Source of the DNA: Raillietiella orientalis
Lineage: Eukaryota
Length of the DNA stretch: 64,000 bases
Assembly (NCBI GenBank): GCA_036172245.1
Contig: JAYWIR010000074.1
Coordinates: 310,001 to 374,000, forward strand
Reading direction: 5' to 3'
The translations under genes and the position numbers were made by a program. Positions within the stretch are counted from its first letter, which is position 1, and the number at the start of each line of letters is the position of its first letter. Below the pieces are notes generated by a model that had not been told where the DNA came from, did no database searches, and saw nothing but the letters and a program-made list of their open reading frames with translations. Below are positions 1 to 64,000 of this stretch, one piece after another.

Positions 1-3000
1 CAAGCGCGACTGGCTGTCGGAGGCAGGCGCGCGCACGGCGCACCTGATAGCCGGCGATTTTAATATTCGCCTGCTATCAGGTGCGGCGAGGACAGAGGCC
101 ACCCCGGTTAACGAGATGTGCGCTGCGGTGCACGCATCCAACTTGTTAGCCGGGGATACCGGGATGGAACGGAGCGTGGACCACGTCTTCCTCGACGATC
201 ACCTGCGCTGTCGCGTGTAAAGGCGAGGTAAGATACAGTCCGCAGTCTCCGACCACTCCCGTGTGGAACTCGTCATTCGCCCGCGCGACAGGGGGCCCCC
301 CGCGCAGGCGTGGCGTCTACCGGGGGACTGGCTGACCAAGCCAGGCGCAGCGGAACACCTCCGCGCGTTCTTGCGAGGTTTCAGCCTGCAGACGCTCGAC
401 GACTGGGACGATTTGAAAGTCTCGGTGCGAGAGTTCTGCCAACAGTTTACCATGGACCGTCTCCCGAAAGGATTTGGAGAAGGTGTTCGGAACGATAGGG
501 CCTACCTGCAGGCCCGTCGTTACTCCCGAACACCAGACGTCCGAAGACTGGCGCAATTTAAAGCCGGGGCCGAGCGGCAGGCCTGGCAATCGGGGTCGCC
601 CAGCCTGCTGGACGACGAAGGCCAAGAGCACTCGGCCCCGGCAGAGGTGAGTAGCCTAGTGCACGGCTATTATTCTTCCTTGTACACCAGGGTGCCTCCG
701 GACCGGGAATTTTCCCAATTTTTGCTTCCGGACGGTGTTCCGGCGATCGGGGAAGAAGAGAGAGTACGCCTGGACGAGCCTTTCACGATGGGTGAAATCA
801 TCACCCCAATAGGGAAGCTCAAAAGGCGGAAGTCACCGTGGGAAGACGGCCTGCCCGCGGAGTTTTTTCAGTGCTTCGCGGCGGAGCTGGCTCCCCTGGT
901 GCAGCGGCTAACGCTGCTGATCCGGGAGACAGGAGACGTTCCCGCCTCCTTCCGATCGGCACGTATGCGTCTCCTACCGAAAGGAGGAGACTTACGGAAC
1001 CTCAACAATTGGCGTCCGATTACCGTACTGAACGCGGACGCCAAGCTGGTTGCGAAGCTATGGTCGGAGCGAATGGGGCGGGTGGCGGAAAGCTTCATCA
1101 GCCCGGAGCAGACCTACGCTGTTCCCGGGCGAAGCATGGACGCCAACCTGCTCTTCGCGAACACCTGGTTCGAACTTCAAAGAACCAGAATGAATGGAGG
1201 GAACAAGGTCGGCAGCCCGATTTGCAGGACGTCCGCTGGTGGTTCGCGGGATAGTAGGGAGAGAGAAGGGGCCCTCGCGGTCGCTGTCGATTTGCGGAAA
1301 GCATTCGACAGTGTCGACCAGGAGCTCCTGCTGGAGCTTCTGAAGCGCTTGGGCTTCCCGGCATCCTTATTGGCCTTTTTGCGCTCTTGCTGGCACGACG
1401 CGCTGACCAACATTTCTTTCAGGGGAAGGAACGTGTTCGGTGTGCCGGTGCGCCGCGGGATACGGCAGGGTGATAGCTTGAGCCCCTTGCTCTTCAGCAC
1501 CTACTTCGAGTTGGTGCTGATGGCATTCAGGGAGACTCTTGGTCGCCTGCCGCGCGTGTGCCCAGGTACACCGGCCTTGGCGGCGTATGCGGACGATCTT
1601 CTGCTGCTGCTCCCCATGTCCACCTGGGCGTCGGCAATCGAAAACTTTTTCGAGCTGCTGCGTCGCGGGACAGGACTGGAGGTGAACAGAGGAAAGTCGT
1701 CCGTTGTTGCAGTCGGTTCCTCGTGGGCAGAGCAGCTAGACTGGTCTTGCTTGGGGATCCGCACGGTACGGTACCTTAAGTACCTCGGTGTGCCGTTGGG
1801 GGACTACTCCCAACGGAACAATGGTCTTCCTGCCTCCAAAAGGCCGAGAGAGCGATCGGCCCGTTCCTGGATGGCAAGTTTTTCTTGCCGGAACGTGCCG
1901 TGCTGTGGAACACTTTCGTGGCCCCCCTGTTTCGCTCCTTGCTTTTTGTTTGTCTATCACCCCGTGGTGTGAGAACACGTACAAAGGACCTCCTCAGAAT
2001 CGTCATCTGGGGCAGAGGAAGGCCCCGCGCGCGTTGGAAGGACTTGTGCGCCTCTCGTCGCGATGGGGGCCTTGGCCTCCTCACGCTGGAGCGCCTCGAA
2101 GTGCAGCTGCAGTTCCGAACAATCGCCCTAGTGGCGAAGTTGTGGAGCGCCAGCTGGTGCGAGCCTGCACGATGCCTGGTTCAGCGAGTCGGCGGCTGCG
2201 CGGGACAGTCTACCTTCCTAGCGCGCCGCAAACGCCGGTACCTGTTCCACTGCGGACTGGCTCTTCGGCGAGTGGCGAAGCTGACCAGGAAGAACACCTG
2301 GATCTCCTGCCGGCCCGCGAACGGCACTTCCTGGTTGCAGGAAGGTCTTCGCACGTCAGCCCAGATCGAGGAAGCGAGCCCGGAGTTGCGGCAGCGAATG
2401 CTGCACTCCTATCATAAGAGCCGCTCTCTGCAGGACATCATCGTGCAGCTTGCCTTGAGTGCGTGGGCTGAGAGGACCTCCCTTGCCACAGCTCTGTCCC
2501 ACCTCAAGGAACATCTGGGCAGTAGCCAGCCGGCCATGTGGGAGGTCCGGTGTACGATCAGCGACACTGAGAAAGAACAAGGTGGTTGGACCACGGGTCA
2601 GCTTGCTGATGCCGCGATCCCAAGTTCCCCACCGAGAGGACTGTTGCGTTGGGGCGAGCTGCTGTGCATCCCGCGGGATGAACTCGAGTGGCCCCCAGTG
2701 CTGAGGAATACTCGGGCCCTCCCCCTAAAGTGCCAGGAGTCGGCGTTCCTGGTGTTGCACTGGGGACTCCCCAGCAACGCCCGCCGCTCTCATTGGACGA
2801 GGGGGGTTGTGGACCCAAACTGTGTCAGGTGCGGGGAACGAGAAACTCTCCCGCACCTGCTCGTTAACTGTGTTGCCCTCCGGCCCCTGTGATTGCGCTT
2901 TGCAACAGCCGATGGTGCACCCTTGCACGATCCCAGAGACGTTTCAAAGCGCCTCTTCGTGCGCGACGCCCTTTCGCCTGCCGCAGCCCTTGCAGCCCTC

Positions 3001-3185
3001 TGCTGCCTACGAGGGATTGTAGCGGCTTGGAGCACCGCCACTGGTGGACCGAACGATTGGGACATCTTGTGCTACGCCCTGCGCTTCCTGAGGACGGCAG
3101 CCAGATGGACCCATCTGGGACACATGCAGTTTGAACTTGCCGGCATCCTGCAAAGGATGTACAGGACGTCTCCAGCGGAACGTGA
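1..3185 (+). pseudogene. E1 ORF2 (APE-RT-zf), disrupted
   Basis: ORFs 263..1972, 1885..2892 and 2893..3216 are consecutive pieces; stop near 219, frameshift near 1820, stop at 2890. Confidence 0.88.
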
Positions 3186-3426
3186 TCCCTTCCCCAACCC
3201 CTCCCTGCTTTTGTAAATAGTGTTTTCTTTTTGCTTTTTTCTATTTGTCCCTTCCCCCTCCGCTGCCGATTCGACCTTGGGAGCCTGCGTGCTGCCCACT
3301 CGGCGAGTTCACAAGAACATGTTCTGAACACTGTAGGGGCGATAGCCCTACACTTGCTAGTTTATTTTTATTTTATTTTATTTTTTTATTAAAGAAATAA
3401 ACGCCCCGGCGCACCCGGTTGTAAAA
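1..3426 (+). mobile_element. E1: L1/Tx1-like non-LTR retrotransposon, 3' part (EN end, RT, C-terminal domain, 3' UTR); 5' end outside window
   Basis: GDFN/SDH, NWRPITVLNAD, DLRKAFD, QGDSLSPLLF, YADD, KYLG, CVRCGERETLPHLLVNC; 3' terminus AATAAA (3396-3401) + CCGG hairpin. Confidence 0.9.
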
Positions 3427-5110
3427 GCAGTGCCGACTGTTGCCACTTCATGGGGAGGGTGCGCGAGTCCAAGAGCACCGGGGGCCACTCCAGATGTTCC
3501 TTCGGAACATCCAGTAGCTCGCCCCAGCGCAAGAGTCCGTGTGGGCTGGTCCTCGCGGTCGCAGCGTTGGTGAGCTGACCCGTTCTCCAATCCCCGATCT
3601 TCTTTGCCCTGCGGGCGATGTTGTAGTTAACCTACCATTGTGGCGCCACGTCGCTGCCTAGAGGTTCCCTTATTGTAGGCGGTACCGCGGCAAGGAAGGT
3701 TCTTTGTGCCCACGCTCTCCTTCGGAGTTCCTCGACGATTTCTCGGAGCTTGCGATATGCGCGCAGCCCGACTATTGCTATTCGCTCGAGTTGCGCGCTC
3801 TGCTCCTAAGTCATCGCCCACGTTCGAAACGTTTCCTGCAGCTCCGGAAGACCGTTTGCGGGGCGTACGAAGATGGATCCCGCGTTGTTTTTGACGAGCT
3901 TGGCCGGCAAAGCTGGGTTCCGCAGTGGAACATCGGCCTTGGGAGTGCAAAGTAGGACGAGAGTCCCGCGTTGCCGGTGGCCTGTTCGACGAGGAGGCGT
4001 GCAGGGACGCATCAGAGGGTGCAACAGTTCTTTGCCATAAAGGTAATTATCCGGAACTGGAGCACAAGCTTCCGCCGATCCAGCGTTAGAAGGCCCAAAC
4101 CACCATCAAGACGCGAAGCGCACAAGTCCGCGAGACGGACTCGGGGTCTCCCTCTGCCCCAAAGGGCTATCCTCAGGAGGAACTTCGTCCTTTTCCCTGA
4201 CTTCGCTGAGGGGGGGCAAACAAAAGCAAGGGGCGAAGGAGGGGTGCTGCGAACGCGTTCCACGCCGCAGCTTGTTCCTGCAGGTAGAAACTGCCGTCCT
4301 GGAACGGACCGATCGCCGCCTGAGCCTTCTGAAGACAGCCGGACCACGCTTCCGCAGTGGAGTAGTCCCCCAACGGCACACCAAGGTACTTGAAGTACCT
4401 CACCATGAAGATCCCCAAACGGACCCATTCCTGCTGCCCTGCCCACGCCGCTCCGACTGGCATTACGGACGACTTTGCCCTGTTCACCATAAGTCCGGTT
4501 CCCCGATGCAGCAGGTCGAAGAACTTCTCGACCGCCGAAGCCGGGGCTGACATAGGGAGCAGTAGCAGAAGATCGTCCGCGTATGCCCAAACCGCAGGCG
4601 TACCGGGACAATCGCGCGGCAGGTGCGCCAGAGTCTCCCTGTACGCTCTCAGCACCAGTTCGGAAAAGGCGCTAAAGAGCAGGGGGCTCAGCCTCTCTCC
4701 CTGCCGTAAACCGCGTCGCACCTGTAAGCCGTGCACAGTCTGCCCGCTTAAAAAGACATTAATTAGCGCGTCGCGCCAACTGGAGCGCAGGTAGGTCAAC
4801 AAAGAGACCGGGAAGCCCAAGCGTTACAGAAGATTCATCAGTAGATTCTTTTCGACGCTGTCGAAGGCTTTACGCAAGTCTAGAGCGTCCGAAAGGGCTC
4901 CCTTCTCCACCCGACCGTGTCGCCTTTCACCAACGTACGCACCGGAATTCCGGCTGCTCAATAAGCCTTTTCCTTCTTAGAGCTTTAACCATGTGAAAGC
5001 GTGGAATAGGTTCGCCTCCATGCTTCGCCCGGGAACAGCATATGTTTTTTCCGGGCTGATGAAGATGTTTGCAACCCGTCCCAAACGCTCCACCCACAGC
5101 TTGGCTATCG
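3427..5110 (-). mobile_element. E2: degenerate ORF2 fragment (RT to pre-zinc-finger region), bounded by insertions E1 and E3
   Basis: ORF 4173..4820 (QGERLSPLLF, YADD, KYLG); the minus strand near 3427-3470 reads LPMKWQQSAL. Confidence 0.8.
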
Positions 5111-5111
5111 A

Positions 5112-7921
5112 CTTGGGGTGCAAACGTGTTGCTTACGCGCTCCTTTGCGCCTGTTGTAAAGCTTTCCTTTTCATTAGTGTTTGTGTGTGGTGCATCTGCG
5201 CTGTCCAATGGCACAAATGCCTGAGGACACCGCGATGGATGTCGGCAGGGAGAGGATTGTTCCTCTCCCCGACCCCATTGAGGTGAGGGCAACTGCCCCC
5301 ACGGAGGAGAAGGCAACCGCTACCTTGAAAAAGGGGGCAACCGCCTCTCCGGAAACGAAAAATACCGCCACTTCAAAAAAGTGTGCAACCGCCTTCGTGC
5401 AAGAGGCCGCAACCGCCCCTCCAAAAGTGGACAACCGCGGTCTTGGAAAAAAGCGCAAACGTCTCCTTGAAAAAGGGGACAACCGCCGCCTTGGAAAAGG
5501 GCGCAACTGCAATCTTGAAAAAGGGGTCAAACGCGTCTTCGGATCCGTTTGCTCCATCCACGAAGACCTGAAGCTCCGTGGCTGCAGCGCCATCTACTTC
5601 AGCCTTAGCAGAACAGCGCGCCTAACTTGAACAAGGATACAAGCCGTCCTTGATTTACAAGGTAGATAATCTGTTTGTGGGGAATACCACCCGCAACTTC
5701 GAGAGGGAGTTGCAGCGGCTAGATGTAAAAGAGGAGGACCTGGAAGGTCTTTCAGTGCTCAGGGGGGTTCAGCGGATGCAGCTAACTTTCAAAGATGCAA
5801 GCTTGGCTTAGCGCCTGCTAAATACCCCCTTTAAGCTGGAAGGCAGAAGGGTCTTCCCGATAACCGAGGTTCGCTCTGTGGTAGCGCATCTTACGGGAGT
5901 AACCCTCCGAATGTCCAAAAGCGGCGCAAAGGACAAATTGAGTAAATTCGGAACGGTACACGCGGTATGAACCAAGCCGAACGTCTTCCAATGTTACGGA
6001 AGATTGTTCAGTGGCATGGCCGCAGCGCGTGTGACCGTCAAGAAACACGGTAGGCTGCCCCACATACTAGACGTCGGCAACGAGGTGATCGACGTCTGGT
6101 ACGTGGGTAAGCCCAAGTACTGTGGGCACTGTGATGCAACAGGGCACCTGAAAAAACGGTGCCCTCACATCCAGTGTTTCCACTGCGGAGAGAAGGGCCA
6201 CCTCCGGAAAGTGTGCTTGAAGCGGGAGCCTCCAGCTCCTTCTGCCTTGAAAAAAGTTAAAGGGAAACGCATTGAGAAAACAAACAAGCCCACAGAAGCA
6301 AAGAAAAGGCCAAGCAAAAAGCCAGAGTTCGAATGCTCCCAGCAAACGGCGTTCGAGAAAACTCCTGACGACGCTGGTGACAACGAGGACTCGAGGAGAG
6401 CGAAGCGGAAAAGTAAAAAAAGCCGAACCACCGAAGAACCGACAGCGAAACCCTCGAAAACTTCTTTAAATAGAAGGCAACGCCACGGTTTGCTCCGCGA
6501 ATGTTCGGTCGCTTTGGAGCGAGTGGAGATCCCCGAGACCTCCACTGGGTGAGATATCCCCCGCCTCGTTGACGCCGAAGCCGTGATCGCGGAAGGCGAA
6601 CCCTCTGTGCAAACAGAGGGGGAGCCGAGAGACGCGCTCGCCGCAATCCAGGAAGCCGCCTTCCAACAGGCGGCGGAAGAGCTTGCTGCCGAGCTCGCGG
6701 ACCGTGAGAACGGAAGGCGAAAGGCCTTTCGATGGCCGGACGCGACCAGGGCACTCCCGACTGGTACCACAACCCCGGTGCCGGAAGTGCGTGCTCCTTC
6801 GCCGAGGCACCTCCGAAGAAGACTGGACGGAGGTCGTAGAATCCGAAGAGGCGCATCCCGACAAAGAAGGAGGGGGACGCACCGGCAGCCGAGGGGAAAG
6901 CCGGTATCGTGGGAAAGGAGAAATGGGTCTTCCCAGCCTCCGCTACCGAGCACCTGGAGACCAGCTTGGAGGAGGGGGAGAAGACTAGTGATTGCCCCCC
7001 CCTTCCAAACGATGGGACCTGCTAAGGAGATAACCAAGGAGCAGGAGGAGCAGACGGTTAACAACCGCTGCCCCCTGCCGTCCAGCGCTGCCGACGAATC
7101 GGCCCCCATCGAGGAGAGAGAACCGGTGCGCAGTCATCCCATTCCTCCACCCTTCCCGCGCAAACAGGTGACGGGAGCTCCATTGCAACTTTTCCAGGGA
7201 AAACACCTAGGCTCACCTGTCGCCGTCGAGTACGCGTGGCGCGTTGGTACGTGAACGGGCTGTGCGACGACTGCAACAGACGGGACACGGCCGCCACCCC
7301 GCGTGACTTCGAGCTGGCGCTCCTGCAGGAGATCCACGTGATTACCGCGGAGAACGCCCAGGAGATCGAGAGGATCCCAGGGAGTCGTCTGTTTTATAGA
7401 TACGGCGCTGGGAACACCAGTGGCGTCGCCTTTTTAATAAAACCAGCGCGACTGGCTTGCGGATAGAAAGGTACGCAAAGTGCATCTGATCGGTGGGGAT
7501 TTCAACATCCGCCTGCTCTCAGGTGTGCCTTGCGGGCAAAAAGATGCAGCCAACGAGCTGTGCGCTGCTATGCGCACGCGCAACTTGTTGGGGGACCTAC
7601 CGGAAATGGTCCAAAGCGTAGACCACGTCTTCCTTGACGACGACCTGTGCCCACGGGTCGGCAGACGAGGAAAACTTCCGTCGACGATATCGGACCATTT
7701 CCGGATGAAAGTAGAGGTTATGCCTCGCGACAAAGGATCACCATTCAGGGCGTGCCGTCTGCCGGGGGACTAGACGCGCATCTCAGATGCGGCGGAACAT
7801 CTCCGCCAAGTACTGGGTGGAGTCATCCTCCAAAATCTTCAAGACTGGGACCGCATGAAGGCCTCAATCTGCGAGTCCTGCGAGGAGTTCCCTGTAGACC
7901 GCTTGCCCCGGGGATTTCGTG
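5112..7921 (+). mobile_element. E3: 5' part of element (5' UTR, disrupted ORF1 from ATG 5208, partially deleted EN), interrupted by E4
   Basis: CGHCDATGHLKKRC/CFHCGEKGHLRKVC knuckles in ORF 6004..6552; YVNG, LQEIH, GDFN, SDH at 7240-7700. Confidence 0.85.
5289..5535 (+). repeat. 24-bp (8-aa) degenerate tandem repeat, about 10 units, in the E3 ORF1 N-terminus
   Basis: Units such as GCAACCGCTACCTTGAAAAAGGGG, GCAACCGCCTCTCCGGAAACGAAA, ACAACCGCCGCCTTGGAAAAGGGC. Confidence 0.8.
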
Positions 7922-10021
7922 TTGCCACCCGAGTACGCCCAGGGCGTTTATTGACACCCTACAAAAACGTGGAAGGAGGCCCTACTAACGGCCGCACAAC
8001 AACGGACCTGCCGAGACGCCGGGACGCAGCCCGGCGTGACGCTCCTCGGCAGTGGAGGGAAGTTTGGGAGAAAACAAAAAAAAATGAAATAAAGAAAAAC
8101 AAAAGGAGTTTGGAGGGAGGGAAAGGGATCACTATCCACTAGGAGAACGACCCCTTCTCCAGAGGATGCCCTCTAGGTCCTTCTGCCTTTGTTTCAGATG
8201 GGGCCATCTCGCAGCTCTTCGCATGAAGCTCACAGCTTTCGGGATGAATTCCCACTCGTTAACATCCACTTCTTCGTCGCAAATGTCGCTCCAGGCCGTT
8301 TCGATGCCCCGGATGCAGCAGAGATCTGCGAGGGCTACGGAGGGCTGCAGGGCGTTCCGCACGAAGAGGGGCCCAAAAACGTCTCTGGGCGCGCTGCCCA
8401 TTGGGTGCCCGAGGGTCCTGCCGAACTGTTCCCACAGGGGTCGGACAGCAGCAAAGTCGACTAGAAGTTGGGGGAGCGATTCCCGCTCTCCACACCTGGC
8501 ACACTCAGGGCTTACACTTCCTCGCGTTCAGTGGAAGCGGCGCGCGTTGCAGGGTAAACTTCAGTGCAACAGCAGCAGTGCGGACTCTTGCCACTTTAGC
8601 GGGAGAAGCCTGGATCCGATTAATACTGGGGGCCACTTGAGGTCATCCGTTGGGATGCCAAGCAGCTTGTTCTATCTAACAATTCCATGCGAAAGGGCAC
8701 TCGGGGTCGTGGCATCTGCCAGTTCGTTTATGTTCCAACCGCTCAGTTTCTTTTTCCCTGCCTGCGATCCGGCAGGAGACGTGCCACTTCGGCGTGCGGC
8801 CGCTGATTAGAGCCCTTCGTAGGTAGGGCAGCGTGAAAGCCAAAGGGGTGTTCTCTGCCCACGTGCTCCTGGCGGGACACTCCAGAGTGGTCCGTAGGGT
8901 GCAGCAGGCGTTGGAGCCGAGTCGCAGGCGGTTCCAGACACGTTAGTCTGGAGGTTTAGCCTGGCCCACGTCCCAACGGATTCCACAAGCCAAGCGGAGG
9001 AGTTGGCGAAGCTACATACCGTCCAACCGTTCTCTCACCAGGGATTCCATGCGCCTAAGGAGAAGGCTGCATCTCCTAACCTTCCGACCGGGGCACAGAA
9101 GGAAAGAAGCGAGTCCTAGCGTCCTCGATACACGGCTGTCGAGAATGCGAACCGGGACGTACCAGAGGGTGTTCCACGTCTTTGCTGCGATGGCTAGGGT
9201 GTGCCATCGCAGCTGTATGTCCATGCGCTCCAACGTCAGGAGGCCAAGACCACCGTCCCGACAAGGAGCGCATGTGTCCTTAAGAGGTGCACGAGGCCTC
9301 TTACTGCATCAGAGGGTGATGCGGAGAAGGGCTTCAGTCCTCTTCTTCAGGTCACGGAGGATGGAGCACACAAAAAGCAGGAGGCGGAAGATGGGAGCCG
9401 GGAACTCGTTACACACCGCGGCCCGTTCCGGCAGAAGGAACTTGCCTTCCAGGAACAGACCGATGGCAAACTCTACCTTTTGGAGACGACCTGACCAGGC
9501 ATCTGCGAGGCAGAATTCCCCCAACGGGACACCCAGGTATTTCAGGTACCTGACCGTGGAGATTCTCATGCGGATGCAGTCAGGCCGTCCATGCCACGTC
9601 GCAACGAACGGTACCACCGACGACTTCGCCTTGTTAACCTGCAATCCAGTCCCACGGCTCAGCAGATCCAAGAAATTCTCGACTGCGACTGCCGAGGCGG
9701 ACATGGGCAACATCAGCAGAAGATCGTCGGCGTACGCAGCTACTACAGGCGTGCCTGGGCACGAGCTAGGCAAGGCAGCCAAAGACACCCTTTACGCTCT
9801 CAGCACCATCTCAAGGTAGGTGCTGAAGAGCAGGGGAATCAGACTCTCGCCCTGCCGTATGCCCCGCGCCACCGGAAGGCCGTACGTTTTCCGCTGAAAG
9901 AGACCTTGATTAACGCATTCCGCCAGCAAGAGCGGAGGTAGGAGAAAAGAGAGGGTGGGAAGCCCATGAGACCCAGAAGCTCCTACAGTAGCTCCTTGTC
10001 CACGCAGTCGAACGCCTTCCG
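7922..10021 (-). mobile_element. E4: 3' part of element (3' UTR, C-terminal domain, RT up to KAFD), interrupted by E5
   Basis: 3' terminal motif at 7922-7952; ORF 9309..9788 with YADD and KYLG; ends at RKAFDCVDKELL. Confidence 0.85.
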
Positions 10022-54839: not shown

Positions 54840-57800
54840 TCACTGCTCGCTGTGGAGAGGGCCCATCCGTCGAACGAAGCCCTCGAGGTCAGTCTCATAT
54901 TCCCCAGTTGGGGCCATCCGGCAGCTCTTCGCAAGAAGCGTTGGGCATATGGGATGACATCCCTCGCGTGTTGACCCACTCCTTCCTTGTTGGTGTCGCT
55001 CCATGCCGCCACGATGCCTCGGACGCAGCACAAGGCTGCAAGGGCTGCGGCTGGCTGCAAAGCGTCCTTCACGAAGAGGGGCCGAAGAACGCCACTAGGG
55101 GAACTGCCCGTTGGGAGACCGAGGATCGTCCCAAACCGTTCCCAAAGGGTACGAAGGGCAGCACAGTTCACAATAAGGTGGGAGAGCGATTCCCGCTCTC
55201 CGCACCTGACACACGCAGGATCCACAACTCCTCTTGTCCAGTGAGAGCGGCGTGCGTTGCAGGGTAAACCCCAATGCAACAACAGCAACGCCGACTCTTT
55301 CCACTTAAGAGGCAGGATCCTGGATTCCTGAAGAAGCGGGGGCCACTTCAGCACATCCATAGGGATGGCCAGCAGCTCGCCCCATCTTCTTAGTCCTCGC
55401 GGCTGGACGCTCGGGGTCGTGGCGTCTGCCAGTTCTCCTGTTGTCCAGCCGCTGATCAACTTTTCGCGTCCCTCGATGCAGCAGGAGACTTGCCACCTTG
55501 GCGTCCGGCTGCTGTGAAGTGCCCTCTTCAGGAAGGGCAGCGCCGTAGCTAGACAGGTCGTCTCTGCCCACGTGCATCTTGCTGGACTCTCCAGGAGATT
55601 CCGCAGCGTGCAGCGGGCGTAGGGGCCGCATCGGAGACGATTCCACGTCTCGTGGCTTGTCTTGTTAACCACTGCCCATGTTCCAATATTTTCCTCCAGC
55701 CAGGCGGGGGAGTTGGCGGGGCAGCAAACCATCCAGCTGTTCTCCTTGGCCAATGTTGCCATGCGCCCGAGCAGTAGGCCGCATCTTCGCATCTTCCGGC
55801 CACGGCTGAGAAGAAAAGACGCGAGTCCATCGCACCGGGACACACGGCTGGCCAGGAGGCGGGCTGGAGTGCACCAAGGGGTGCACCACATCTTCGCTGC
55901 GAGGGCGAGGGTTCGCCACCGCAGCTGCTTCTCCACGCGCTCCAGCGTCAGGAGGCCAAGACCGCCGTCCCGACGCGGAGCGCACAAGTCCTTCAGTGGG
56001 ACTCGGGGCCTCCCCTTGCCCCAAAGGGCGATACGGAGGAGGTCCTTCGTCCTTTTCTTGGATTCCACGGTGGGAGGGCAAACAAAAAGCAAGGGGCGGA
56101 GGATGGGGGCCGCGAAGGCGTTCCAAACCGCGGCCCGTTCCGGCAAGTGAAACTTGCCTTCCAGGAACGGGCCGATCGCCGTCTCGACTTTCTGGAGGGA
56201 GCTGGACCACGCTTCCGCAGGGGAGTAGTCCCCCAACGGCACACCAAGGTACTTGAAGCAACACGCCGTGGGGATCCCCAGACGGACCCAGTCCTGCTGC
56301 CCTGCCCACGCCGCACCTATTGGCACAACCGACGACTTCGCCCTGTTAACATGCAGTCCGGTCCCGCGGCTGAGCAGATCGAAGAAGTCTCCGACCGCCT
56401 TCGCCGGGGTGGACATTGGCAACAAGAGCAGAAGATCGTCGGCGTACGCTGCTACGGCGGGCGTGCCGGGGCACGAGCACGGCAAGGGGGCCAAAGTCAC
56501 CCTGTACGCTCTCAGCACCAACTCAAAGTAGGTGCTAAAGAGCAGGGGGCTGAGGCTATCGCCCTGCCTTATGCCCCGCCGCACCGGCACGCCATACACC
56601 TTCGGTCCACTGAAACAGACGGTAATCATCGCATTCCGCCAGCAAGAGCGCAGGTAGGAAATCAGGGAGGGTGGGAAGCCCATGCGACCCAGGAGCTCCA
56701 AGAGGAGTTCCTGGTCTACACAGTCGAACGCCTTGTGGAGATCGACTGCGAGCGCTAGGGCCCCCTTCCCTGCCCGGGGGTCCCTTCCCAGCCCGGCTGG
56801 CGGCCCCAATGTGGGGTTGCCGACTTTCCCTATCCCTTTCTTCTCTCTTCTCTGCAGGTGCACCCATGTGCTTGCGAAGAAGAGGTTGGGATCCATACTT
56901 CGCCCGGGAACAGCATAAGTCTGCTCCGGGCTAATTACGGATTCTGCCACCTGCCCCAGACGCGAAGCCCATAGCCCTGCTATCAACTTGGCGTCCGTAT
57001 TCACGATTGTGATCGGACGCCAGTTCTTCAAATTCCTGAGGTCTCCCCCTTTCGGAAGGAGCCTCACTCTGGCTGACCGAAACGAGGCGGGAACATCGCC
57101 TTCGTCTCGGATCAGCCTTGTCAGCTGAAGCAGCAGGGGCGCCAGCCCTTCCGCGAAGCTCTGATAGAACTCCGCGGGCAAGCCGTCTTCCCCTGGAGCT
57201 AACCGCCTCTTGAGCCTTTTGATACCGGCGAGAATTTCGCCGGTGGTAAAAGGCTCGTCGAGGCTTTCCATCTCTTCCTCCCCTATTGCCGGGGTGCCAT
57301 CCGGAAGCAAGCGCCGAGAGGCGTTTCGATCCGGGGGCTCCCTGGCGTAAAGGGAGGAATAAAAACTCCGCACGAGATGCCGTACCGACGCCGGGGACGA
57401 ACATTCCCGGCACTGGTCGTCCAGCAAGCTGGCCGACCCGTATTGCCAGGTTTGGCGTTTGGCCCCGGCACGGTACTCGGCCAGGCGACAAACATTAGGG
57501 GTTCTCTCGTACCTACGAGCCTGTAAATAGGCCCGATGGTTGCGAGCACCCTCGCCGAATCCGGGGGGCAGGCGATCCAGGGAAAACTGCTCACAGAACT
57601 CGCGGACCGATTCCTTAAAAAGGTCCCAGTCCTGGAGATTCCGGAGCGTGACGCCTCTAAGGTATTCGCGAAGGTGTTCCTTCGCACCTGAGAGTCGCGT
57701 CCAGTCCCCCGGCAGACGCCAATCCCTGGATGGCGGTCCTTCGTCGCGAGGCCGCATCTCGAAAATTAGCCGGGAATGGTCCGACAACGTCGACACAACC

Positions 57801-58435
57801 CTCCCCCGTTTGCCGACGCGTGAACACAGGTCAGCGTCCAGGAAGACGTGGTCGATGCTGCGGACCATTCCTTTCTCACCCGCGAACAAGTTGCGCGTAC
57901 GCATGGCAGCGCACAACTCGTTCATCGCGTTCACTTGTGTTTCCGGCTCACCTGTTAGCAGGCGGAGATTGAAATCTCCCGCTATCAGGTGCGCCTTTTG
58001 CACATTGGTATCCGCCAGCCAGTCGCGCTTCAGGGTTTCCAGCAGCCTGGTGCGGTCGCGGTAACCCTGTTTGCCGCTGGGGCCATACACGTTTGTGACG
58101 ATTAAGTCGATCGAGTCGGACCAGCTGAGAATCAGCTGACCGATCCGACCGTCGTCATCAAACCGCACGCCCTTTACGGCAGCGTCGATGGCCGGCTTCA
58201 CGAAGAACGCGACCCCGCAGGTGTTGCGGAGGCCGCATCGCCTATACAGCCGACCCCCCGCGATCGTCTCGATTTCCTGGGCGTCTGCCGCGGTGATCAC
58301 GTGGATCTCCTGCAGCAGGGCCAGGTCGAGCTCACGCAGGGTGTCGGCTGTATCTCGCCTGTTGCCGTCGTCGCGCAGCCCGTTGACGTTCCAACAGGCG
58401 GCGCGAATCCGACGGCGACTGGCGAGCCCAGGTGT
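54840..58435 (-). CDS. E17 ORF2 (APE-RT-zf), open except for a frameshift about 20 codons before the natural stop
   Basis: ORF 54674..58300 (1208 aa) extends upstream to ACA at 58435; the family C-terminus DLEGFVRRMGP..* lies in another frame ending at 54840. Confidence 0.9.
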
Positions 58436-60312
58436 TAGTCCAGGGAAAACGGCGATGCGGCGTCCGCCACCTGCTGGGACGGGACGCTAGGTGGAGGAGG
58501 AGGAGGGACAGGTACTGAAGGCACCTTTTCCTCCTCCTCCATCGGTGCCGGCGCGTCGGCCGGATCACCCGCACGTGGAGTCGCGCCTACCTTTTCGCCT
58601 TCCTCCATGGGTTCGGGCTGCTCAGGTTTCGCGACTGCAGGGAGGACTTCACCCCCCTGCTCTCCCTCCTCCATGGGGGTGACCGACTCGACGGCTTCCG
58701 GGCGTGGGTATTCCCCCTCCGGGATTCCCACGCTGCCGCTTCCTTCCGGTTTCTCCTCCTCGCTGGTGGAGGGGAGGCGCCTCCTGGGTTTCTGGGACTT
58801 GCGTCCCGACTTCCTGGGGGATGCCTCCGAGGAGGAGGATCCGCTTCCGGCCCCCAGGTCGCACTCACCTGCGGGGGCCTTCTTCGTCGGAGCCGACCTG
58901 CGTACGCCCTTGCGCGACGGGGTTTCGCGCTCGGCGAGCGTTGCTGCGAGCTCCTCCGCCGCTTTCTCGAAGGCCGCGTCTTCGCCAGGGGCGACCGTTG
59001 CCGCGGGCTGCTCCGCGACCTTATCGAGCGCGGCGTCATCGTTGACGGCGAACGTTGCCGCGGGCTCCTCCGCGACTTTATCGAGCGCGGCGTCCTGGCT
59101 GTCGGCGCGCGAGTCTCGCGTCTCACCCTCTACACGTAGATTGGGCTCGTCCACGCGAGTATTCATCGCGTCCGCATCAGCTGTTCCGCGAACATTGCCG
59201 CGGGCGGACTCGGCAGGAACGGCTAAGCGTTCCAGTGCCACCGAGCATTCGCGGAGCTTTTGTTTTGAAAGCGGCGCGGCTTTTTTCTTCTTGTTGCCGG
59301 CAGTTTTCTTCTCCGAATTTTCTTCTATCATCACCTTCTTTTTTTTCTCTTTTCTGGCCTGAACCAGCTGCCAACCCTCCTCCATTCCCGCGTCCACGGG
59401 AGCTATTTCCTCCGACGTATGTACGGGAGGAAGGGAGGCTGGCAGTTGGGAACGGCCATTTTCGCGAGCTGGTCTTTCTACCAGCTTTCCACGTTTTCCC
59501 TGCGCCTTTTTGGCGGCAGGGGGCCCCGGGGTGGGGCGCTTGGGGCACACGCGCCGAACGTGACCCTTTTCGCCGCATAGGTGGCACACAATGTTCGGGC
59601 ACCTTTTTCGTAGATGCCCTACTGCATTGCAGTAGCCACAAAATTAGCGTTTTCCCACGTACCAGAGGTCCACCGCTTCTTGGCAGACCTCCAGCTTGTG
59701 GGGAAGCGCACCACCCTCTTTCACTGTGATACGCGCCGCAGCTTGAACTCCGAAAAGGCTATTGTAGCCTTGGAAAATCGTGGACTTCGGCCACAACGCG
59801 TGCACTTCTGCGTGCTTTTCTAACTGTTCGCGAACCGCTGACCTTGTCATGCGACTGGGGATCCCAGTGAGGTGGACCACCACCGAGCGCTCCATCTTTA
59901 GAAGCAAGATCTTCCGACCATCAACGATCAGCGGGTCGGTGATCAGGTGTCGGGCCAAGGTGATATCCTTGCATACCACCTCGACCCGCTGCCCGCCGCT
60001 GAGTACGCAGAGGCCGTCGAGATCTTTTTCGAAAATATTGGCGTTCTGCAGCGCCTTCGTAAAGGCGCGTGCAGTTTGCCCATCGAAAAGGTTGCCTACC
60101 TTGTAAACTTGAGAGGATTTATACCCCGCTTTCTTGTAGGCTTCCATCTCGGCCATGGCTTCCACGCTGGGCACGGCCACCATGGCGCTCCATGACCTCG
60201 GTGTCGCCGGGGACGATTCCGGGGCGGATGCCCCTGATCCAGTAGGCTGTGGGGACGAACAAGCCTCCATCATGCCTACTTCCATCGCGGTGTCCTCTGG
60301 CAACGCTGCCAT
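58435..60312 (-). pseudogene. E17 ORF1 with a single in-frame TAA at 59644-59646
   Basis: ORFs 59644..60336 and 58435..59589 share a frame; two CCHC knuckles follow the stop. Confidence 0.88.
58925..59095 (-). repeat. 57-bp (19-aa) tandem triplication in E17 ORF1
   Basis: DAALDKVAEEPAATFAVND / DAALDKVAEQPAATVAPGE / DAAFEKAAEELAATLAERE; single copy in E16. Confidence 0.85.
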
Positions 60313-60411
60313 CGGACACCGACGATGTGCACGCACAAATCACTAAAGAAGAAAAAACACTCGCTTTGCCACGCAGGCGGAGCGCAGGAAAAGCACGTCC
60401 GCTCTCCACAG

Positions 60412-63132
60412 CGGGGTTTCGGCGAAGGGGCTCGCAACGAACGCGCGTATTTGCACGCGCGTCGTCACGAGAGGAACCCCAATGTCCGTCGCCTGGCCCA
60501 ATACCGCGCCGGAGCCGAGCGACAAGCCTGGCAATCCGGGTCAGCCAGCATGCTGGATGACCTGGGTCGGGAACGTTCGTCAGCGTCTGCGGTACGGAAT
60601 CTCGTGCGGTGTTTTTATTCCTCCCTTTACGCCAAAACGCCACCCGAACAAGACGCCTCGCGGCGATTGCTCATGAGTGGTTCCGTGGCGATAGGGGAGG
60701 AGAAGAGAGAAAGCCTCGATGAGCCTTTCACGACCGGTGAAATTCTCGCCAATATCAAAAGGCTCAAGAGGCGTAAGGCGCCAGGGGAGGACGGCTTGCC
60801 CGCGGAGTTCTTTCAGAGTTTCGCGGACGAGCTGGCGCCCCTGGTGCTCGAGTTAACAAGGCGAATCCGAGACGAAGGCGATGTTCCCGCCTCGTTTCGG
60901 TCAGCCAGGGTGAGGCTCCTCCCGAAGGGAGGAGACCTCAGGAAACTTTGCAACTGGCGTCCGATCACGATTGTGAACACGGACGCCAAGTTGATTGCCG
61001 GGCTGTGGGCGTCGCGATTGGGGCAGGTGTCCAATTCCATAATTAGCCCGGAGCAGACAAACGCTGTTCCCGGGCGAAGTATGGAGGACAACCTCTTCTT
61101 CGCGAGCACATGGATGCACGCGCAGCGGAGTAATAAAGAAGGGGAAGGGAAAATTTGCAACCCTACTTTGAAGCCGCCAGTGGGACAGGGTAGGGAACCT
61201 CATGCAGGAAAGGGGGCCTTAGCGATCGCAGTCGACCTCCATAAGGCATTCGACTGTGTTGACCAGGAACTCCTCTTGGAGCTCCTGGGTCGCATGGGCT
61301 TCCCACCCTCCTTGATTTCTTACCTGCGCTCTTGCTGGCGGAACGCGATAATCTCAATTACTTTCAGTGGACAAAAGGTGTATGGCGTGCCGGTGCGACG
61401 GGGCATAAGGCAGGGCGACAGCCTCAGCCCCCTCCTTTTTAGCACCTACGCTGATTTGGTGCTGAGAGCGTACAGGGTGACTTTGGCACCCTTGCCGAGC
61501 TCGTGCCCCGGCACGCCAGCCGTAGCGGCGTATGCCGACGATCTTCTGCTCCTCTTACCTATGTCCACCCCGGCGAAGGCGGTCGGAGATTTCTCCGACC
61601 TGCTTAGCCGTGGGGCCGGATTACAGGTTAACAGGGCGAAGTCGTCAGTGTTGCCAGTTGGAGCGACGTGGGCAGGGCAGCAGGACTGGGTCCGTCTGGG
61701 GATCCCCACGGTGAGGTGCATCAAGTACCTCGGTGTGCCGTTGGGGGACTTCTCCCCTGCGGAAGCGTGGTCCAGCTGCCTCCAAAAAGTCGAGACGGCG
61801 ATCGGCCCGTTCCTGGAAGGCAAGTTTCACTTGCCGGAACGGGCCGCGGTTTGGAACGCCTTCGCGGCCCCCATACTCCGCCCCTTGCTTTTTGTTTGCC
61901 CCGCCCCCGTGGAATCGAAAAAGCGGACGAAGGACCTCCTCCGCATCGCTCTTTGGGGCAAGGGGAGGCCCCGAGTCCCTTTGAAGGACTTGTGCGCTCC
62001 GCGTCGGGACGGCGGTCTCAGCATCCTGACGCTGGAGCGCGTGGAAATCCAGCTGCGATGGCGGACCCTCGCCACCGCAGCGAAGATGTGGAGCACCGCT
62101 TGGTGCATTCCGGCCCGTCTCCTGGCCAGGCGTATGTCCCGCTGCGAAGGACTCGCATCGTTTCTTCTGTGCCCTGGCCGGAAGATTCGAAGATGCGGTC
62201 TACTGCTCGGCCTCATGGCAACCCTGGCAAAGGAGAACGACTGGATGGTTTGTGGCCCTGCCAACTCCTCCGCTTGGCTGGAAGAGACTGCTGGCACCTG
62301 GGCCAAGCTGAACCAGAGGTGCGAAGACCAGATGAACTGCCTGCGAGTCGGCATTTACGCCCGCCGAACTCTCCGTGAAATACTTGAATTTCCACCGAGT
62401 TGCACGTGGGCGGAAGGCACACCCCTTGTTACGGCGATGCCCTTTCTCCAAAGGGCGCTTCACGAAAGCCGGAAGCCAAGGTGGCAAGTCTGCTGCCGTA
62501 TCGCGGGCAGAGAGAAGACGATGAGCGGCTGGACCATGGGAGAGTTGACAGATGCAACGACCCCTAGTATCCAGCCGCGTGGATTAAGAAGATGGGGCGA
62601 GCTGCTCGGCATTCGATTGGATGACCTGAAGTGGCCCCCGGTTCTACTTGGATCCAGGATTCTTCCCCTGAAGTGGCAAGAATCGGCGCTTCTGTGGCTG
62701 CATTGGGGTCTACCCTGCAACGCGCGCCGCTTCCACTGGACGCGGGGAAGAGTAAATCCTGCGTGTGCCAGGTGTGGGGAACGCGAGTCGCTCCCCCACC
62801 TCTTAGTTAAATGCCCTGCCGTCCGGATTCTTTGGGAACGTCTTCAAACGGCACTTGGGATACCGGATGCAGGCAATGGTGAATGTATCTTCAGTCTTGT
62901 CTTCGTGCGGGACGCCCTCAGTCCAGCTGCAGCCCTGGCAGCACTTTGCTGCATTCGTGGTATAGTGGCGGCCTGGACTGATGCCGAAGATGAAGACTGC
63001 ATCGTGAGGAATGTCATCGAGTATGCTTCTCGCTTCCTGCAGAGAGCTACCCGATGGACCCATCTAGGAAGGATGAAAAAGGAACAAGAAGGCATCCTGC
63101 AAAGGATGGGCCCTCCCAGCAGTTTTCTGTGA
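60412..63132 (+). CDS. E16 ORF2 3' half (RT and C-terminal zinc finger), open frame
   Basis: ORF 60325..63132 resumes at RGFGEGARNE; DLHKAFD, QGDSLSPLLF, YADD, KYLG, CARCGERESLPHLLVKC. Confidence 0.92.
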   Translation, partial: RGFGEGARNERAYLHARRHERNPNVRRLAQYRAGAERQAWQSGSASMLDDLGRERSSASAVRNLVRCFYSSLYAKTPPEQDASRRLLMSGSVAIGEEKRESLDEPFTTGEILANIKRLKRRKAPGEDGLPAEFFQSFADELAPLVLELTRRIRDEGDVPASFRSARVRLLPKGGDLRKLCNWRPITIVNTDAKLIAGLWASRLGQVSNSIISPEQTNAVPGRSMEDNLFFASTWMHAQRSNKEGEGKICNPTLKPPVGQGREPHAGKGALAIAVDLHKAFDCVDQELLLELLGRMGFPPSLISYLRSCWRNAIISITFSGQKVYGVPVRRGIRQGDSLSPLLFSTYADLVLRAYRVTLAPLPSSCPGTPAVAAYADDLLLLLPMSTPAKAVGDFSDLLSRGAGLQVNRAKSSVLPVGATWAGQQDWVRLGIPTVRCIKYLGVPLGDFSPAEAWSSCLQKVETAIGPFLEGKFHLPERAAVWNAFAAPILRPLLFVCPAPVESKKRTKDLLRIALWGKGRPRVPLKDLCAPRRDGGLSILTLERVEIQLRWRTLATAAKMWSTAWCIPARLLARRMSRCEGLASFLLCPGRKIRRCGLLLGLMATLAKENDWMVCGPANSSAWLEETAGTWAKLNQRCEDQMNCLRVGIYARRTLREILEFPPSCTWAEGTPLVTAMPFLQRALHESRKPRWQVCCRIAGREKTMSGWTMGELTDATTPSIQPRGLRRWGELLGIRLDDLKWPPVLLGSRILPLKWQESALLWLHWGLPCNARRFHWTRGRVNPACARCGERESLPHLLVKCPAVRILWERLQTALGIPDAGNGECIFSLVFVRDALSPAAALAALCCIRGIVAAWTDAEDEDCIVRNVIEYASRFLQRATRWTHLGRMKKEQEGILQRMGPPSSFL

Positions 63133-63372
63133 TCCCTTCCCGGCCCTCCAAACTTTTTTTTTTTTGTGGTTTGTTTTTCTATTTTCTTTTATTTTTCTTT
63201 TTTCCCCCATCCCCCTCCACTGCCGAGGAGAGCCACACCGGGCTGCGTCCCGGTGTCACGGCAGTTCCGGTATTGCGTGGCCGTCAGTGGGGCCTTGTAC
63301 CACGTTCTGTATTGACCGTTGAAATGTTTTTAATAAACGTCCCGGCGTATCCGGGTGGCATCGCCGAATCCC

Positions 63373-64000
63373 TTGGCGAGTGGACGTGTGTTTCCTTCGC
63401 TCCCGAGTGAGTCGACAGGAAGCGGTTTTTTTCTATTGTTGTTTTGTGTGGAACATCGTTGGTGTCCGATGGCAGCGATGCCTGCGGACACAACGATGGA
63501 GGTAGGTGTGGGGGAGGCTTGCCCACCCCCACAGCCTACAGAATCAGGGGCGTCCGCCCCGGAATCGCCCTCGCCGCTCAAGGCGAGGAGCTGGAGCGCC
63601 ATGGTGGCCGCGCCGAGCGCGGAAACCATGGCCGAGATGGCGGCCTACCGGGCAGCTGGGTACAAGCCCAGCTTGGTTTACCAGGTAGGCAATCTCTTTG
63701 ACGGGCGAACTGTACGCGCTTTTTCGAAAGCGCTGCAGAACGCAAACGTGTTGGAAAAGGACCTTGACGGTCTATCCGTGCTAAGCGGGGGTCAGCGCGT
63801 TGAGGTTGTCTGCAAGGACATCACCTTGGCGCAAAGCTTGATAACCACCCCGCTGAACGTGGACGGACGCAAGATCCTACCAGTCACGATGGACCGCTCC
63901 GTAGTGGTCCATCTGACAGGGATCACCAGCCGCATGACGCGGTCTGCGGTTGGTGATCAGTTAAGAAAGTACGGGGATGTTCACGCGCCTTGGCCAAAGG
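63373..64000 (+). mobile_element. E18: 5' end of an RGFG-targeting element, ORF1 from ATG 63469, runs off the window
   Basis: GGACGTG at 63382; ORF1 start nearly identical to E7. Confidence 0.88.

What the first reader, a model, noticed from the sequence alone, without database searches (positions are those of the whole stretch)
1..64000. A community of non-LTR retrotransposon families that target each other's ORF2 at specific conserved sites
Seen: the window consists only of related L1/Tx1-like elements, and their junctions recur at the same nucleotides of a host element's ORF2. Six sites occur: RGFG linker, RT DLxKAFD, EN QEIER, ECSAxAE, AKLW and KWQxSAL. Element families, distinguishable by ORF1, UTRs and ORF2 start, pair consistently with one site for the two sites used repeatedly. 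Known: Tx1-clade elements are often target-specific, and Chlorella Zepp nests within itself. Inference: this is a multi-family system that partitions ORF2 into insertion niches, using conserved motifs the victim cannot easily mutate. That would give a gene-free safe haven while inactivating competitors. I do not know of this exact arrangement being described, but cannot search.
Basis: partly seen in the sequence, partly recalled or inferred. Interest (0 to 1): 0.92.

Follow-up and report, generated by a model that had tools for sequence, protein, structure and literature searches.

The report
LINE retrotransposons inserting into each other
This stretch of DNA is built almost entirely from related jumping genes (LINE retrotransposons) that have repeatedly cut into one another at the same few exact positions, each lineage apparently using its own spot.

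Summary
61,586 of 64,000 bases are LINE-derived: about 22 pieces of related non-LTR elements with a CCHC ORF1 and an APE endonuclease plus RT ORF2.

I mapped 12 element 3' ends and 10 5' ends to the nucleotide. None of the 12 3' ends has a poly(A) tail.
- Elements with an A-type 3' tail sit at the ORF2 linker site RGFG. That is 4 host-embedded events plus 3 tandem junctions with exactly 12-nt spacers.
- B-type elements sit in the RT motif HKAFD (4 events).
- Five further sites occur once each, one of them in ORF1.
- Target duplications are 12 nt (A) and 13 nt (B).
- 12 of 13 inserts lie antisense to their host.

Identity steps at junctions (insert about 90%, host about 65-70%) show independent insertions, not one copied event. 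One tandem junction is a duplicated composite, and several pieces are recombinants.

The best reading is a radiation of target-specific LINE lineages that use LINE coding sequence as their landing site. The claim that the targets are motifs the victim cannot mutate fails: only 2 of 6 sites are highly conserved at nucleotide level.

No genome was held, so genome-wide generality is untested. I rate this a new variant of known kinds (target-specific LINEs; Zepp-type nested clusters).

The parts
1..3427 (+). E1: singleton lineage, ORF2 aa 153 to its 3' end (5' part cut by the window). The 3' end at 3427 abuts the KWQQSAL codons of E2.
3428..5116 (-). E2: B2-type host fragment, ORF2 aa 500-1069. 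Broken at KWQxSAL by E1 and at DA|KL by the 5' end of E3.
5117..7919 (+). E3: 5' end, ORF1 and ORF2 aa 1-310. Broken at RGFG.
7920..10021 (-). E4: A3-type, from its 3' end up to aa 585. Its 3' end lies in the RGFG site of E3; it is itself broken at HKAFD.
10022..12723 (+). E5: mosaic element. The 5'UTR and ORF1 are B-like (80-92% to E8) and the EN is distinct. Its 5' end lies at the KAFD site of E4; it is broken at RGFG.
12724..18366 (-). E6: full-length A1 element (5.6 kb). Its 3' end lies in the RGFG site of E5.
18367..18378 (-). 12-nt spacer GCCGAAGCCCTT (a copy of the RGFG target) between the 3' end of E7 and the 5' end of E6.
18379..20483 (-). E7: 3' half (aa 584-1270) of an A1 element that is split by E8.
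20484..26041 (+). E8: full-length B element (5.6 kb) inserted antisense at HKAFD of the A1 host E7/E9. TSD 13 nt, 11 of 13 matching.
26042..29601 (-). E9: 5' half (5'UTR, ORF1, ORF2 aa 1-588) of the same A1 host.
29602..29613 (-). 12-nt spacer GCCGAAGCCCTA between the 3' end of E10a and the 5' end of E9.
29614..31865 (-). E10: colinear chimera. The 3' part is A2-type (92-100% to E21) and switches at about 31000-31050 to B-type (aa 536 to about 820). This is recombination, not insertion.
31866..32109 (-). E11: B-type, aa 62-147. Joined to E10b by an internal deletion. It is the host part on the 5' side of E12.
32110..38038 (+). E12: full-length C1 element (5.9 kb) inserted antisense at AQEI(ER) of the B-type host E11/E13.
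38039..40008 (-). E13: B-type 5' part (5'UTR, ORF1, ORF2 aa 1 to about 72). Its 5' end lies at the KAFD site of E14.
40009..40543 (+). E14: relative of E18. It runs from KAFD to aa 645, then has an internal deletion, then its 3'UTR and a 3' end at 40543.
40544..43614 (+). E15: C2-type, from ORF1 'A(T)ARVT' to HKAF. Broken at KAFD by E16. Its left edge abuts the 3' end of E14 in sense orientation.
43615..47470 (-). E16: B-type, 5'-truncated at the start of ORF2. Its 3' end lies in the KAFD site of E15.
47471..48912 (+). E17: C2-type, from the end of ORF1 to ORF2 aa 370. Broken at ECSAAAE by E18.
48913..51898 (-). E18: singleton lineage, from its 3' end to aa 308. Broken at RGFG by the 5' end of E19.
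51899..54633 (+). E19: A2-type 5' half (5'UTR, open 590-aa ORF1, ORF2 aa 1-311).
54634..60411 (-). E20: full-length A1 element (5.8 kb). ORF2 is open for 1270 codons and ORF1 has one in-frame stop. Inserted antisense at RGFG of E19/E21. TSD 12 nt, 10 of 12 matching.
60412..63362 (+). E21: A2-type 3' half (aa 309 to the 3' end).
63363..63374 (+). 12-nt spacer GCCGAATCCCTT between the 3' end of E21 and the 5' end of E22.
63375..64000 (+). E22: 5' end and start of ORF1 of an A-like element, cut by the end of the window.

Best explanation
The window is an island built by repeated target-primed reverse transcription of a group of related non-LTR retrotransposons. Each has a CCHC ORF1 and an APE-type endonuclease plus RT ORF2, a conserved 3' block of about 30 nt (AATAAA-CGCCCCGG..CCGGGTG plus a 5-8 nt tail), and no poly(A).

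Shown:
- Each lineage's 3' end is joined at one exact nucleotide of another element's coding sequence.
- The matching 5' end lies 12 nt (A-type) or 13 nt (B-type) away.
- The insert is almost always antisense, so the nick that primes cDNA synthesis is in the host element's sense strand. For A-type it falls after ..GGNTTCGGC in the RGFG codons. For B-type it falls after ..AAGGCGTTCG in HKAFD.
- Because the duplicated target is regenerated beside each insert, the same site is hit again. This gives head-to-tail arrays with exactly 12-nt spacers.
- Homologous recombination, gene conversion and deletions between the many similar copies then scramble the nesting.

Inferred:
- The site choice is made by each lineage's endonuclease, by analogy with R1Bm and other target-specific APE LINEs.
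- The lineages have diverged in specificity from one ancestor.
- Landing in LINE sequence serves as a gene-free safe site.
For: Element nature: Pfam RVT_1, Exo_endo_phos and zf-CCHC.

Precise ends:
- 11 3' ends share the AATAAACG.. block (11 true ends among 13 regex matches). A 12th variant end is at 40543.
- 10 5' ends share ..GGACGTGTTTT...

Same-nucleotide junctions and TSDs:
- 6 of 6 A-tail 3' ends are followed by GCCGAA/GCCGTA/CGAAAT, the antisense of GFG.
- 2 of 2 B-tail 3' ends are followed by (C)GAACGCCTTG.
- Host 3' parts start exactly 12 nt (CCGGCTTTCGGC, CGGGGTTTCGGC) or 13 nt (CACAAGGCAGTCG, CGTAAAGCTTTCG, CGGAAGGCGTTCG) before the nick position.
- Three complete nested inserts have matching host halves from one lineage: E8 in A1, E12 in B, E20 in A2.

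Independence of events:
- Identity steps at junctions. E6/E20 are 88-92% identical while their hosts E5/E19 are 62-70%. E8/E16 are 88-91% while hosts E9/E15 are 64-69%.
- RGFG hosts belong to 4 lineages and KAFD hosts to 4 lineages.

Orientation: 12 of 13 host-insert relations are antisense.

Outside the window: contigs of a public run show an A2-type 3' end joined through the same 12-nt copy to an E20-like 5' end, and an E18-like RGFG site joined to an E22-like 5' end. Neither arrangement is present in the window.

One clade: window copies are 47-100% identical to the reference ORF2. The best outside proteins are 68% and 72% (two metagenome fragments of 619 and 132 aa); the next is 36%.
Against: - Only one 64-kb window was seen, and no genome was held. 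How many copies lie outside such islands is unknown.
- Five of the seven sites rest on one event each.
- TSD pairs are imperfect even for elements with open ORFs: 10/12 for E20, 11/13 for E8, and 8/12 for E6 against its upstream spacer.
- The lineage-site link is blurred by mosaics. E5 has a B-like 5' end at KAFD but a non-B endonuclease. The EN of E3 is closest to A-type, yet its 5' end lies at DA|KL.
- One 3' end (40543) abuts ORF1 in sense orientation.
- The tandem junctions E10a>E9 and E21>E22 are about 95% identical on both sides, so they are one event copied.
- Endonuclease specificity itself was not tested.
- Three look-alike GGCTTCGGCGG sites in B-type copies are unoccupied, so recognition must be longer than the 10-nt core, or insertion is rare.
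Confidence: 0.78

Rival explanations
1. There were a few ancestral junctions, perhaps one per site. They were multiplied by segmental duplication or unequal crossing-over in a repeat array, and gene conversion later homogenised the inserts.
For: - One pair of tandem junctions is clearly a copied composite. E10a>E9 versus E21>E22 is 96% identical on the insert side and 95% on the flank side, over about 2 kb.
- E4>E3 versus E20>E19 shows equal divergence on both sides (72% and 73%).
- Patches of 98-100% identity between E6 and E9 show that conversion occurs.
Against: - Identity steps sit exactly at the junctions for E5|E6 versus E19|E20 and for E8|E9 versus E16|E15.
- Hosts at one site belong to different lineages with different ORF1 and 5'UTR.
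- E3 and E19 have their own 5' ends in different target sites (DA|KL versus RGFG). They are therefore separate insertions that were each hit later.
Confidence: 0.1
2. Only the two reused sites reflect real sequence specificity. The single-use junctions (KWQ, DA|KL, QEI, ECS, ORF1) come from lineages that merely prefer the LINE island, for example through centromeric or other special chromatin as proposed for Zepp and ZeppL, and that land at arbitrary positions within it.
For: - Each of these sites is seen once.
- Their nucleotide conservation is unremarkable for 3 of 4 ORF2 sites.
- Run contigs show 3' ends joined at yet other positions of an A1-like ORF2, near aa 81 and aa 285.
- Zepp-type clusters are ascribed to targeting of existing copies without a stated fixed nucleotide (passages read in PMC8226300).
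Against: - These elements share the precise, poly(A)-less 3' ends and full-length 5' ends of the A and B lineages.
- Four of these five single-use inserts are antisense like the others (the fifth, E14's 3' end against ORF1 of E15, is in sense); 12 of 13 overall.
- Each has its own distinct 3' tail.
Confidence: 0.3
3. The junctions are products of homologous recombination or template switching at conserved ORF2 stretches, or of mis-assembly of near-identical repeats. They are not insertions.
For: Colinear switches do occur. E10 changes from B-like to A2-like within a conserved stretch at about 31000-31050.
Against: - Recombination gives same-strand, colinear joins. The recurrent junctions instead join complete 3' or 5' termini, in opposite orientation, to ORF2 with 12-13 nt duplications.
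- The copies are 65-92% identical, which is too diverged to be collapsed by an assembler.
- Similar joins occur in contigs of an independent run.
Confidence: 0.03

Closest known systems
Zepp (Chlorella/Coccomyxa) and ZeppL (Chlamydomonas) L1-clade LINE clusters
   Same: These are LINE-only islands made by insertion into existing copies, with nested and tandem head-to-tail arrangement and a local GC peak. I read passages in PMC3446292, PMC8226300 and PMC9940879.
   Different: As summarised in PMC8226300, those arrays consist mostly of 5'-truncated 3' ends of one family. No fixed nucleotide target or multi-lineage pairing is described in the passages read. In this window most inserts are full-length, there is no poly(A) at 12 of 12 3' ends, at least 8 lineages are present, the targets are nucleotide-precise and the orientation is antisense. 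Relatedness to Zepp could not be tested because no Zepp sequence was available, and the original Zepp papers are not held.
Target-specific APE-type LINEs (R1Bm in 28S rDNA; TRAS/SART in telomeric repeats; Tx1-clade elements)
   Same: An APE endonuclease cuts both strands of a defined sequence, the junctions are precise, and the target is a multicopy sequence. I saw the abstracts of PMC1919474 and PMC4640811 and of PMC7265360. Tx1L inserting into the DNA transposon Tx1D is recalled from memory, not from a call.
   Different: Here the multicopy target is the coding sequence of the LINE clade itself, and sister lineages use different sites within it.
Head-to-tail telomeric LINE arrays (HeT-A/TART/TAHRE of Drosophila; recalled, with the abstract of PMC6581046 seen)
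   Same: Several LINE lineages share one genomic niche and form head-to-tail arrays.
   Different: Those elements attach to chromosome ends and do not use a sequence-specific internal site with TSDs.

Membership tests
Non-LTR (LINE) retrotransposon with APE endonuclease | ORF2 with an Exo_endo_phos (APE) domain upstream of an RT domain | tested here: met
   Exo_endo_phos at 9.2e-12 (aa 32-237) and RVT_1 at 3.2e-21 in the 1270-aa ORF2. The same two domains are found in the C1 element.
Non-LTR (LINE) retrotransposon with APE endonuclease | No LTRs, and target-site duplications flanking complete copies | tested here: met
   12-nt and 13-nt duplications flank E20 and E8. No terminal repeats appear in the self-comparison.
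L1/Tx1 superclade | ORF1 with CCHC zinc knuckle(s) | tested here: met
   two CCHC knuckles in 7 ORF1 copies, and one matching knuckle each in E6 (17597) and E8 (21284).
L1/Tx1 superclade | C-terminal zinc-binding domain after the RT (Pfam zf-RVT) | tested here: inconclusive
   zf-RVT scores 20.3 bits (E 9e-4), below the cut-off of 27.5.
L1/Tx1 superclade | RT/EN phylogeny placing the element inside the clade | not tested
   No reference L1, Tx1 or Zepp sequences were available. The named distant hits are plant, fish and tick L1-like proteins at 21-30% identity.
Zepp / ZeppL | Poly(A) tail and frequent 5' truncation (feature as recalled and as summarised in PMC8226300) | tested here: not met
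   0 of 12 3' ends carry poly(A); 10 intact 5' ends, and only E16 is clearly 5'-truncated.
Zepp / ZeppL | Sequence relatedness to Zepp ORF2 | not testable with these tools
Target-specific LINE | Independent copies joined to the same target nucleotide | tested here: met
   RGFG: 4 host-embedded events in 4 host lineages, plus 2 independent tandem events. KAFD: 4 events in 4 host lineages.
Target-specific LINE | Endonuclease that cleaves the target specifically | not testable with these tools
   This needs a biochemical assay.

The most novel reading that the evidence does not exclude
A radiation of endonuclease specificities within one LINE clade. At least seven sister lineages, 55-80% identical in the EN region, have each evolved their own nucleotide-precise landing site inside the coding sequence of the clade itself, nearly always nicking the sense strand. 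Together they build and maintain a self-renewing, gene-free LINE island, possibly a centromere as with Zepp. Parasites here live on, and disable, each other rather than host genes.
Probability: 0.35. Interest if true: 0.85.

Novelty: new variant of a known kind. Interest (0 to 1): 0.7.

Why it matters
Target-specific LINEs are usually studied one lineage and one host-gene target at a time. This window holds close relatives in one genome that differ in cut site (RGFG versus HKAFD, and probably more), with intact and occupied targets side by side.

That makes it a natural swap experiment for how APE endonucleases change specificity, which bears on programmable insertion tools. It also offers a concrete, nucleotide-level mechanism for how LINE-only islands such as the Zepp-type algal centromere clusters grow: regenerated target duplications are re-targeted, giving nested and tandem arrays.

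Finally, it gives a testable case of transposons whose main insertion target is other transposons.

Tried and rejected
- Whole genome: none is held, so a genome-wide junction map was impossible.
- Metagenome scan with the shared 3' block: 34 loci returned, and 0 of 34 had any LINE ORF1/ORF2 match.
- Sequencing runs: one run with a 0.14 word share, kept as contigs. Laid on 44000-63999, it gave a few informative joints, but 298 loose ends and 19 joints were not shown, so no systematic count of breakpoints could be made. Depth and uncovered parts were not used.
- Protein word-index search: best hits were only 25-30% identical. The search with P0099 gave no named close relative, so the host organism and clade remain unnamed.
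- Atlas search and cluster look-up were unavailable.
- Earlier-findings look-ups returned nothing.
- A 3' hairpin was proposed from the conserved block. RNAalifold gave a weak 7-pair stem (-2.76 kcal/mol) with 0 compensatory pairs, so only sequence conservation is claimed.
- The 5' target copy might be carried in the RNA rather than duplicated from the target, which would explain the imperfect TSDs. I rejected this for 3 of 3 B-type and 2 of 2 host-embedded A-type 5' junctions, because the copy continues seamlessly into host-specific sequence and codon usage.
- 3' tail-to-target base pairing: I saw no complementarity by eye between the tails and the nicked strand. This was not computed.
- Global-alignment identities have a high random baseline (mean 62%, maximum 66%). 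Host similarities of 63-70% from that call are therefore near noise, and I rely for them.
- Literature: searches, plus passages in five papers, found no description of nucleotide-precise mutual ORF targeting by several LINE lineages. Higashiyama 1997 and Yamamoto 2003 are not held and might bear on this. Supplements were not examined.


Full report
WHAT IS THERE

The window has 57-62% GC throughout. A tblastn search used the only fully open ORF2 (54674-58486, minus strand, 1270 codons) and its ORF1 as queries. It tiles the window with 22 blocks on both strands, 47-100% identical to the reference ORF2. Pfam finds Exo_endo_phos and RVT_1 in ORF2 and CCHC knuckles in ORF1; zf-RVT scores below its cut-off. 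Counting nucleotide paralogues and ORF1/ORF2 protein matches, 61,586 of 64,000 bases are element-derived. The ten uncovered stretches (66-813 nt) lie in UTRs and the divergent ORF1 tail. The window therefore contains nothing but related non-LTR retrotransposons.

LINEAGES

Region-by-region MAFFT identities separate these groups:
- A1: E6, E7, E9, E20, at 85-100% to each other.
- A2: E21 and the 3' part of E10 (93-96%), with E19 as the likely 5' half.
- A3: E4.
- B: E8, E16, E13, E11 and the middle of E10. E2 is a more distant B2.
- C: E12, E15, E17, at 67-78%.
- Singletons: E1, E3, E5, E18. E14 is related to E18.

ORF1 and the 5'UTR are modular. E5 has a B-like 5'UTR and ORF1 (80-92% to E8) but a distinct endonuclease region. 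The best proteins outside the window are two short metagenome fragments at 68% and 72% identity; the next is 36%. The word-index search gave only 25-30%. The window's lineages therefore form one clade of their own, whose host organism and named clade I could not establish.

ENDS

Eleven 3' ends share AATAAA-CGCCCCGG-(4-6 nt)-CCGGGTG plus a 5-8 nt tail (11 true ends among 13 regex matches). A twelfth, variant end lies at 40543. None of the 12 has a poly(A) tail. The block is conserved in sequence, but a hairpin is not supported by covariation (7 pairs, 0 compensatory). Ten 5' ends share ..GGACGTGTTTT... Four elements are complete at 5.6-5.9 kb: E6, E8, E12, E20.

JUNCTIONS

A-type tails (TTATAAC, TGATAAC, TGACAAC, TGACATC, TGGCATC, TGGCAACA) are followed in 6 of 6 cases by the antisense of the GFG codons of the linker motif RGFG. 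The priming nick is thus in the host's sense strand, right after ..GGNTTCGGC. B-type tails are followed in 2 of 2 cases by the antisense of HKAF(D), with the nick after ..AAGGCGTTCG. On the other side, host 3' parts begin exactly 12 nt (A) or 13 nt (B) upstream of the nick in 5 of 5 host-embedded 5' junctions. These are ordinary staggered-cut target duplications.

Three inserts are seen whole between two halves of one host:
- E8 in the A1 element E7/E9.
- E12 in the B element E11/E13.
- E20 in the A2 element E19/E21.

Three head-to-tail junctions (E7>E6, E10a>E9, E21>E22) have spacers of exactly 12 nt that read GCCGAA[G/T]CCCT[T/A]. This is what re-cutting of a regenerated A-type target copy would produce.

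In all, 12 of 13 host-insert relations are antisense.

INDEPENDENT EVENTS OR COPIES?

Long self-matches run straight through several junctions, so duplication had to be excluded. Sliding identity along those matches and 400-nt comparisons on either side show steps exactly at the junctions:
- E6 versus E20 is 88-92% identical, while their hosts E5 versus E19 are 62-70%.
- E8 versus E16 is 88-91%, while hosts E9 versus E15 are 64-69%.
- E7 versus E10a is 70-76%, while the downstream E6 versus E9 is 88%.

The hosts hit at RGFG belong to four lineages (E3, E5, E18, A2). Those hit at HKAFD also belong to four (A3, A1, E18-like, C2).

Against this, E10a>E9 and E21>E22 are about 95% identical on both sides over about 2 kb and count as one event. 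E4>E3 versus E20>E19 is equally diverged on both sides (72% and 73%) and is uninformative by this test. However, E3 and E19 have their own 5' ends in different sites.

My count is six independent RGFG events (four host-embedded, two tandem) and four HKAFD events. If 13 insertions fell uniformly on a 5.7-kb element, three further hits on one nucleotide would have a probability of the order of 1e-10. This is my arithmetic, not a tool result.

OUTSIDE EVIDENCE

One public run (coded X1, contigs, word share 0.14) laid on 44000-63999 gave two joins that are absent from the window:
- 60427 joined to 63360 on opposite strands (side 108). I read this as an A2-type 3' end, then the 12-nt copy, then an E20-like 5' end.
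- 51893 joined to 63370. I read this as an E18-like RGFG site joined to an E22-like 5' end.

Two further joins place similar 3' blocks against an A1-like ORF2 near aa 81 and aa 285, which hints at more sites. The output was truncated, so no systematic count was possible. A metagenome scan with the 3' block found only chance matches (0 of 34 loci LINE-related).

REARRANGEMENT

Not every junction is an insertion.
- E10 switches colinearly from B-like to A2-like at about 31000-31050, inside a stretch conserved between lineages.
- E10b/E11 and E14 carry internal deletions.
- E16 is 5'-truncated against E17.
- E6 and E9 share a 400-nt patch of 98-100% identity within an 82-91% background.

Such exchange explains why the expected 3' remainders of E3, E4 and E5 are missing. 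It also explains why some TSD pairs disagree: 10/12 for E20, 11/13 for E8, and 8/12 for E6 against its spacer. The imperfect TSDs of elements with open reading frames remain only partly explained. One possibility is survivorship, in that intact target copies attract further insertions.

Across 12 lineages I scored the conservation of the 15 nt upstream of each nick against all 3742 such windows of ORF2. The percentiles were DA|KL 94, HKAFD 89, KWQ 60, RGFG 47, QEI 41 and ECS 21. So the sites are not, as a rule, the least mutable nucleotides.

The B lineage writes GFG as TTTGGG and is unhit at that site, so synonymous escape looks possible. A1 elements carry a perfect A-type target themselves (E9, E20) and A-type elements hit A-type elements, so this is not purely competitor-directed. 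The 9-mer core GGNTTCGGC occurs 13 times. Three look-alikes (GGCTTCGGCGG in the B-type 'PASAVE' codons) are unoccupied, so recognition extends beyond the core. HKAFD cores occur 11 times, all at that site: 3 are occupied, and two further occupied sites have mutated copies.

COMPARISON WITH WHAT IS KNOWN

Zepp and ZeppL clusters of green algae are LINE islands formed by insertion into existing copies (passages read). In those passages I found no fixed nucleotide target, no multiple lineages with separate sites and no orientation rule. The summarised Zepp features (5'-truncated 3' ends; poly(A) as I recall it) are not met here.

Target-specific APE LINEs such as R1Bm cut both strands of a defined multicopy target (abstract), and the mechanism proposed here is the same. 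What differs is the target (the LINE clade's own coding sequence) and the presence of several sister specificities side by side.

Four full-text searches found no description of this arrangement. The original Zepp papers are not held and might bear on it.

VERDICT

Sequence-specific mutual insertion at RGFG and HKAFD is well supported within this window. The wider 'one lineage, one site' guild is plausible but rests on single events. The 'unmutable motif' and 'competitor-killing' parts are not supported. I rate it a new variant of known kinds, with interest 0.7.

Noticed in passing
window 10810-10822 (E5), 32873-32875 (E12), 59644-59646 (E20): Three of nine ORF1 copies have an in-frame stop in the four codons between '..VG' and the first CCHC knuckle. 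E5 and E12, from different lineages, both have TAG at the same codon (VG*P / IG*T), and E20 has TAA two codons on. This could be coincident decay (AAG>TAG) or a read-through or regulatory stop.
   Followed up: partly
window 16014-16414 vs 27241-27641: E6 and E9 share a 400-nt patch of 98-100% identity inside copies that are otherwise 82-91% alike. This suggests recent gene conversion between A1 copies 11 kb apart.
   Followed up: partly
window 40543|40544: The 3' end of an E18-related element abuts ORF1 (motif A-T-A-R-V-T) of a C2 element in the same orientation. It is the only junction in ORF1 and the only sense-oriented one. It could be a seventh target site, or a 5'-truncated C2 copy inserted behind the 3' end.
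   Followed up: partly
window 43615-43654: The 3' block of E16 carries CCGG>CCAG and CCGG>CCGA changes relative to its relative E8. This looks like CpG decay and hints at cytosine methylation of the island.
   Followed up: no
window 4534-4542, 31393-31401, 45381-45389: B-type copies contain GGCTTCGGCGG in the 'PASAVE' codons of the RT region. This closely resembles the A-type target, but all three are unoccupied.
   Followed up: partly
all 5' ends, e.g. 18345-18366, 20484-20510, 51899-51925: All lineages share a 5'-terminal ..GGACGTGTTTT(T/C)C.. motif within about 20 nt of the first base. It may be an internal promoter or initiator element.
   Followed up: no
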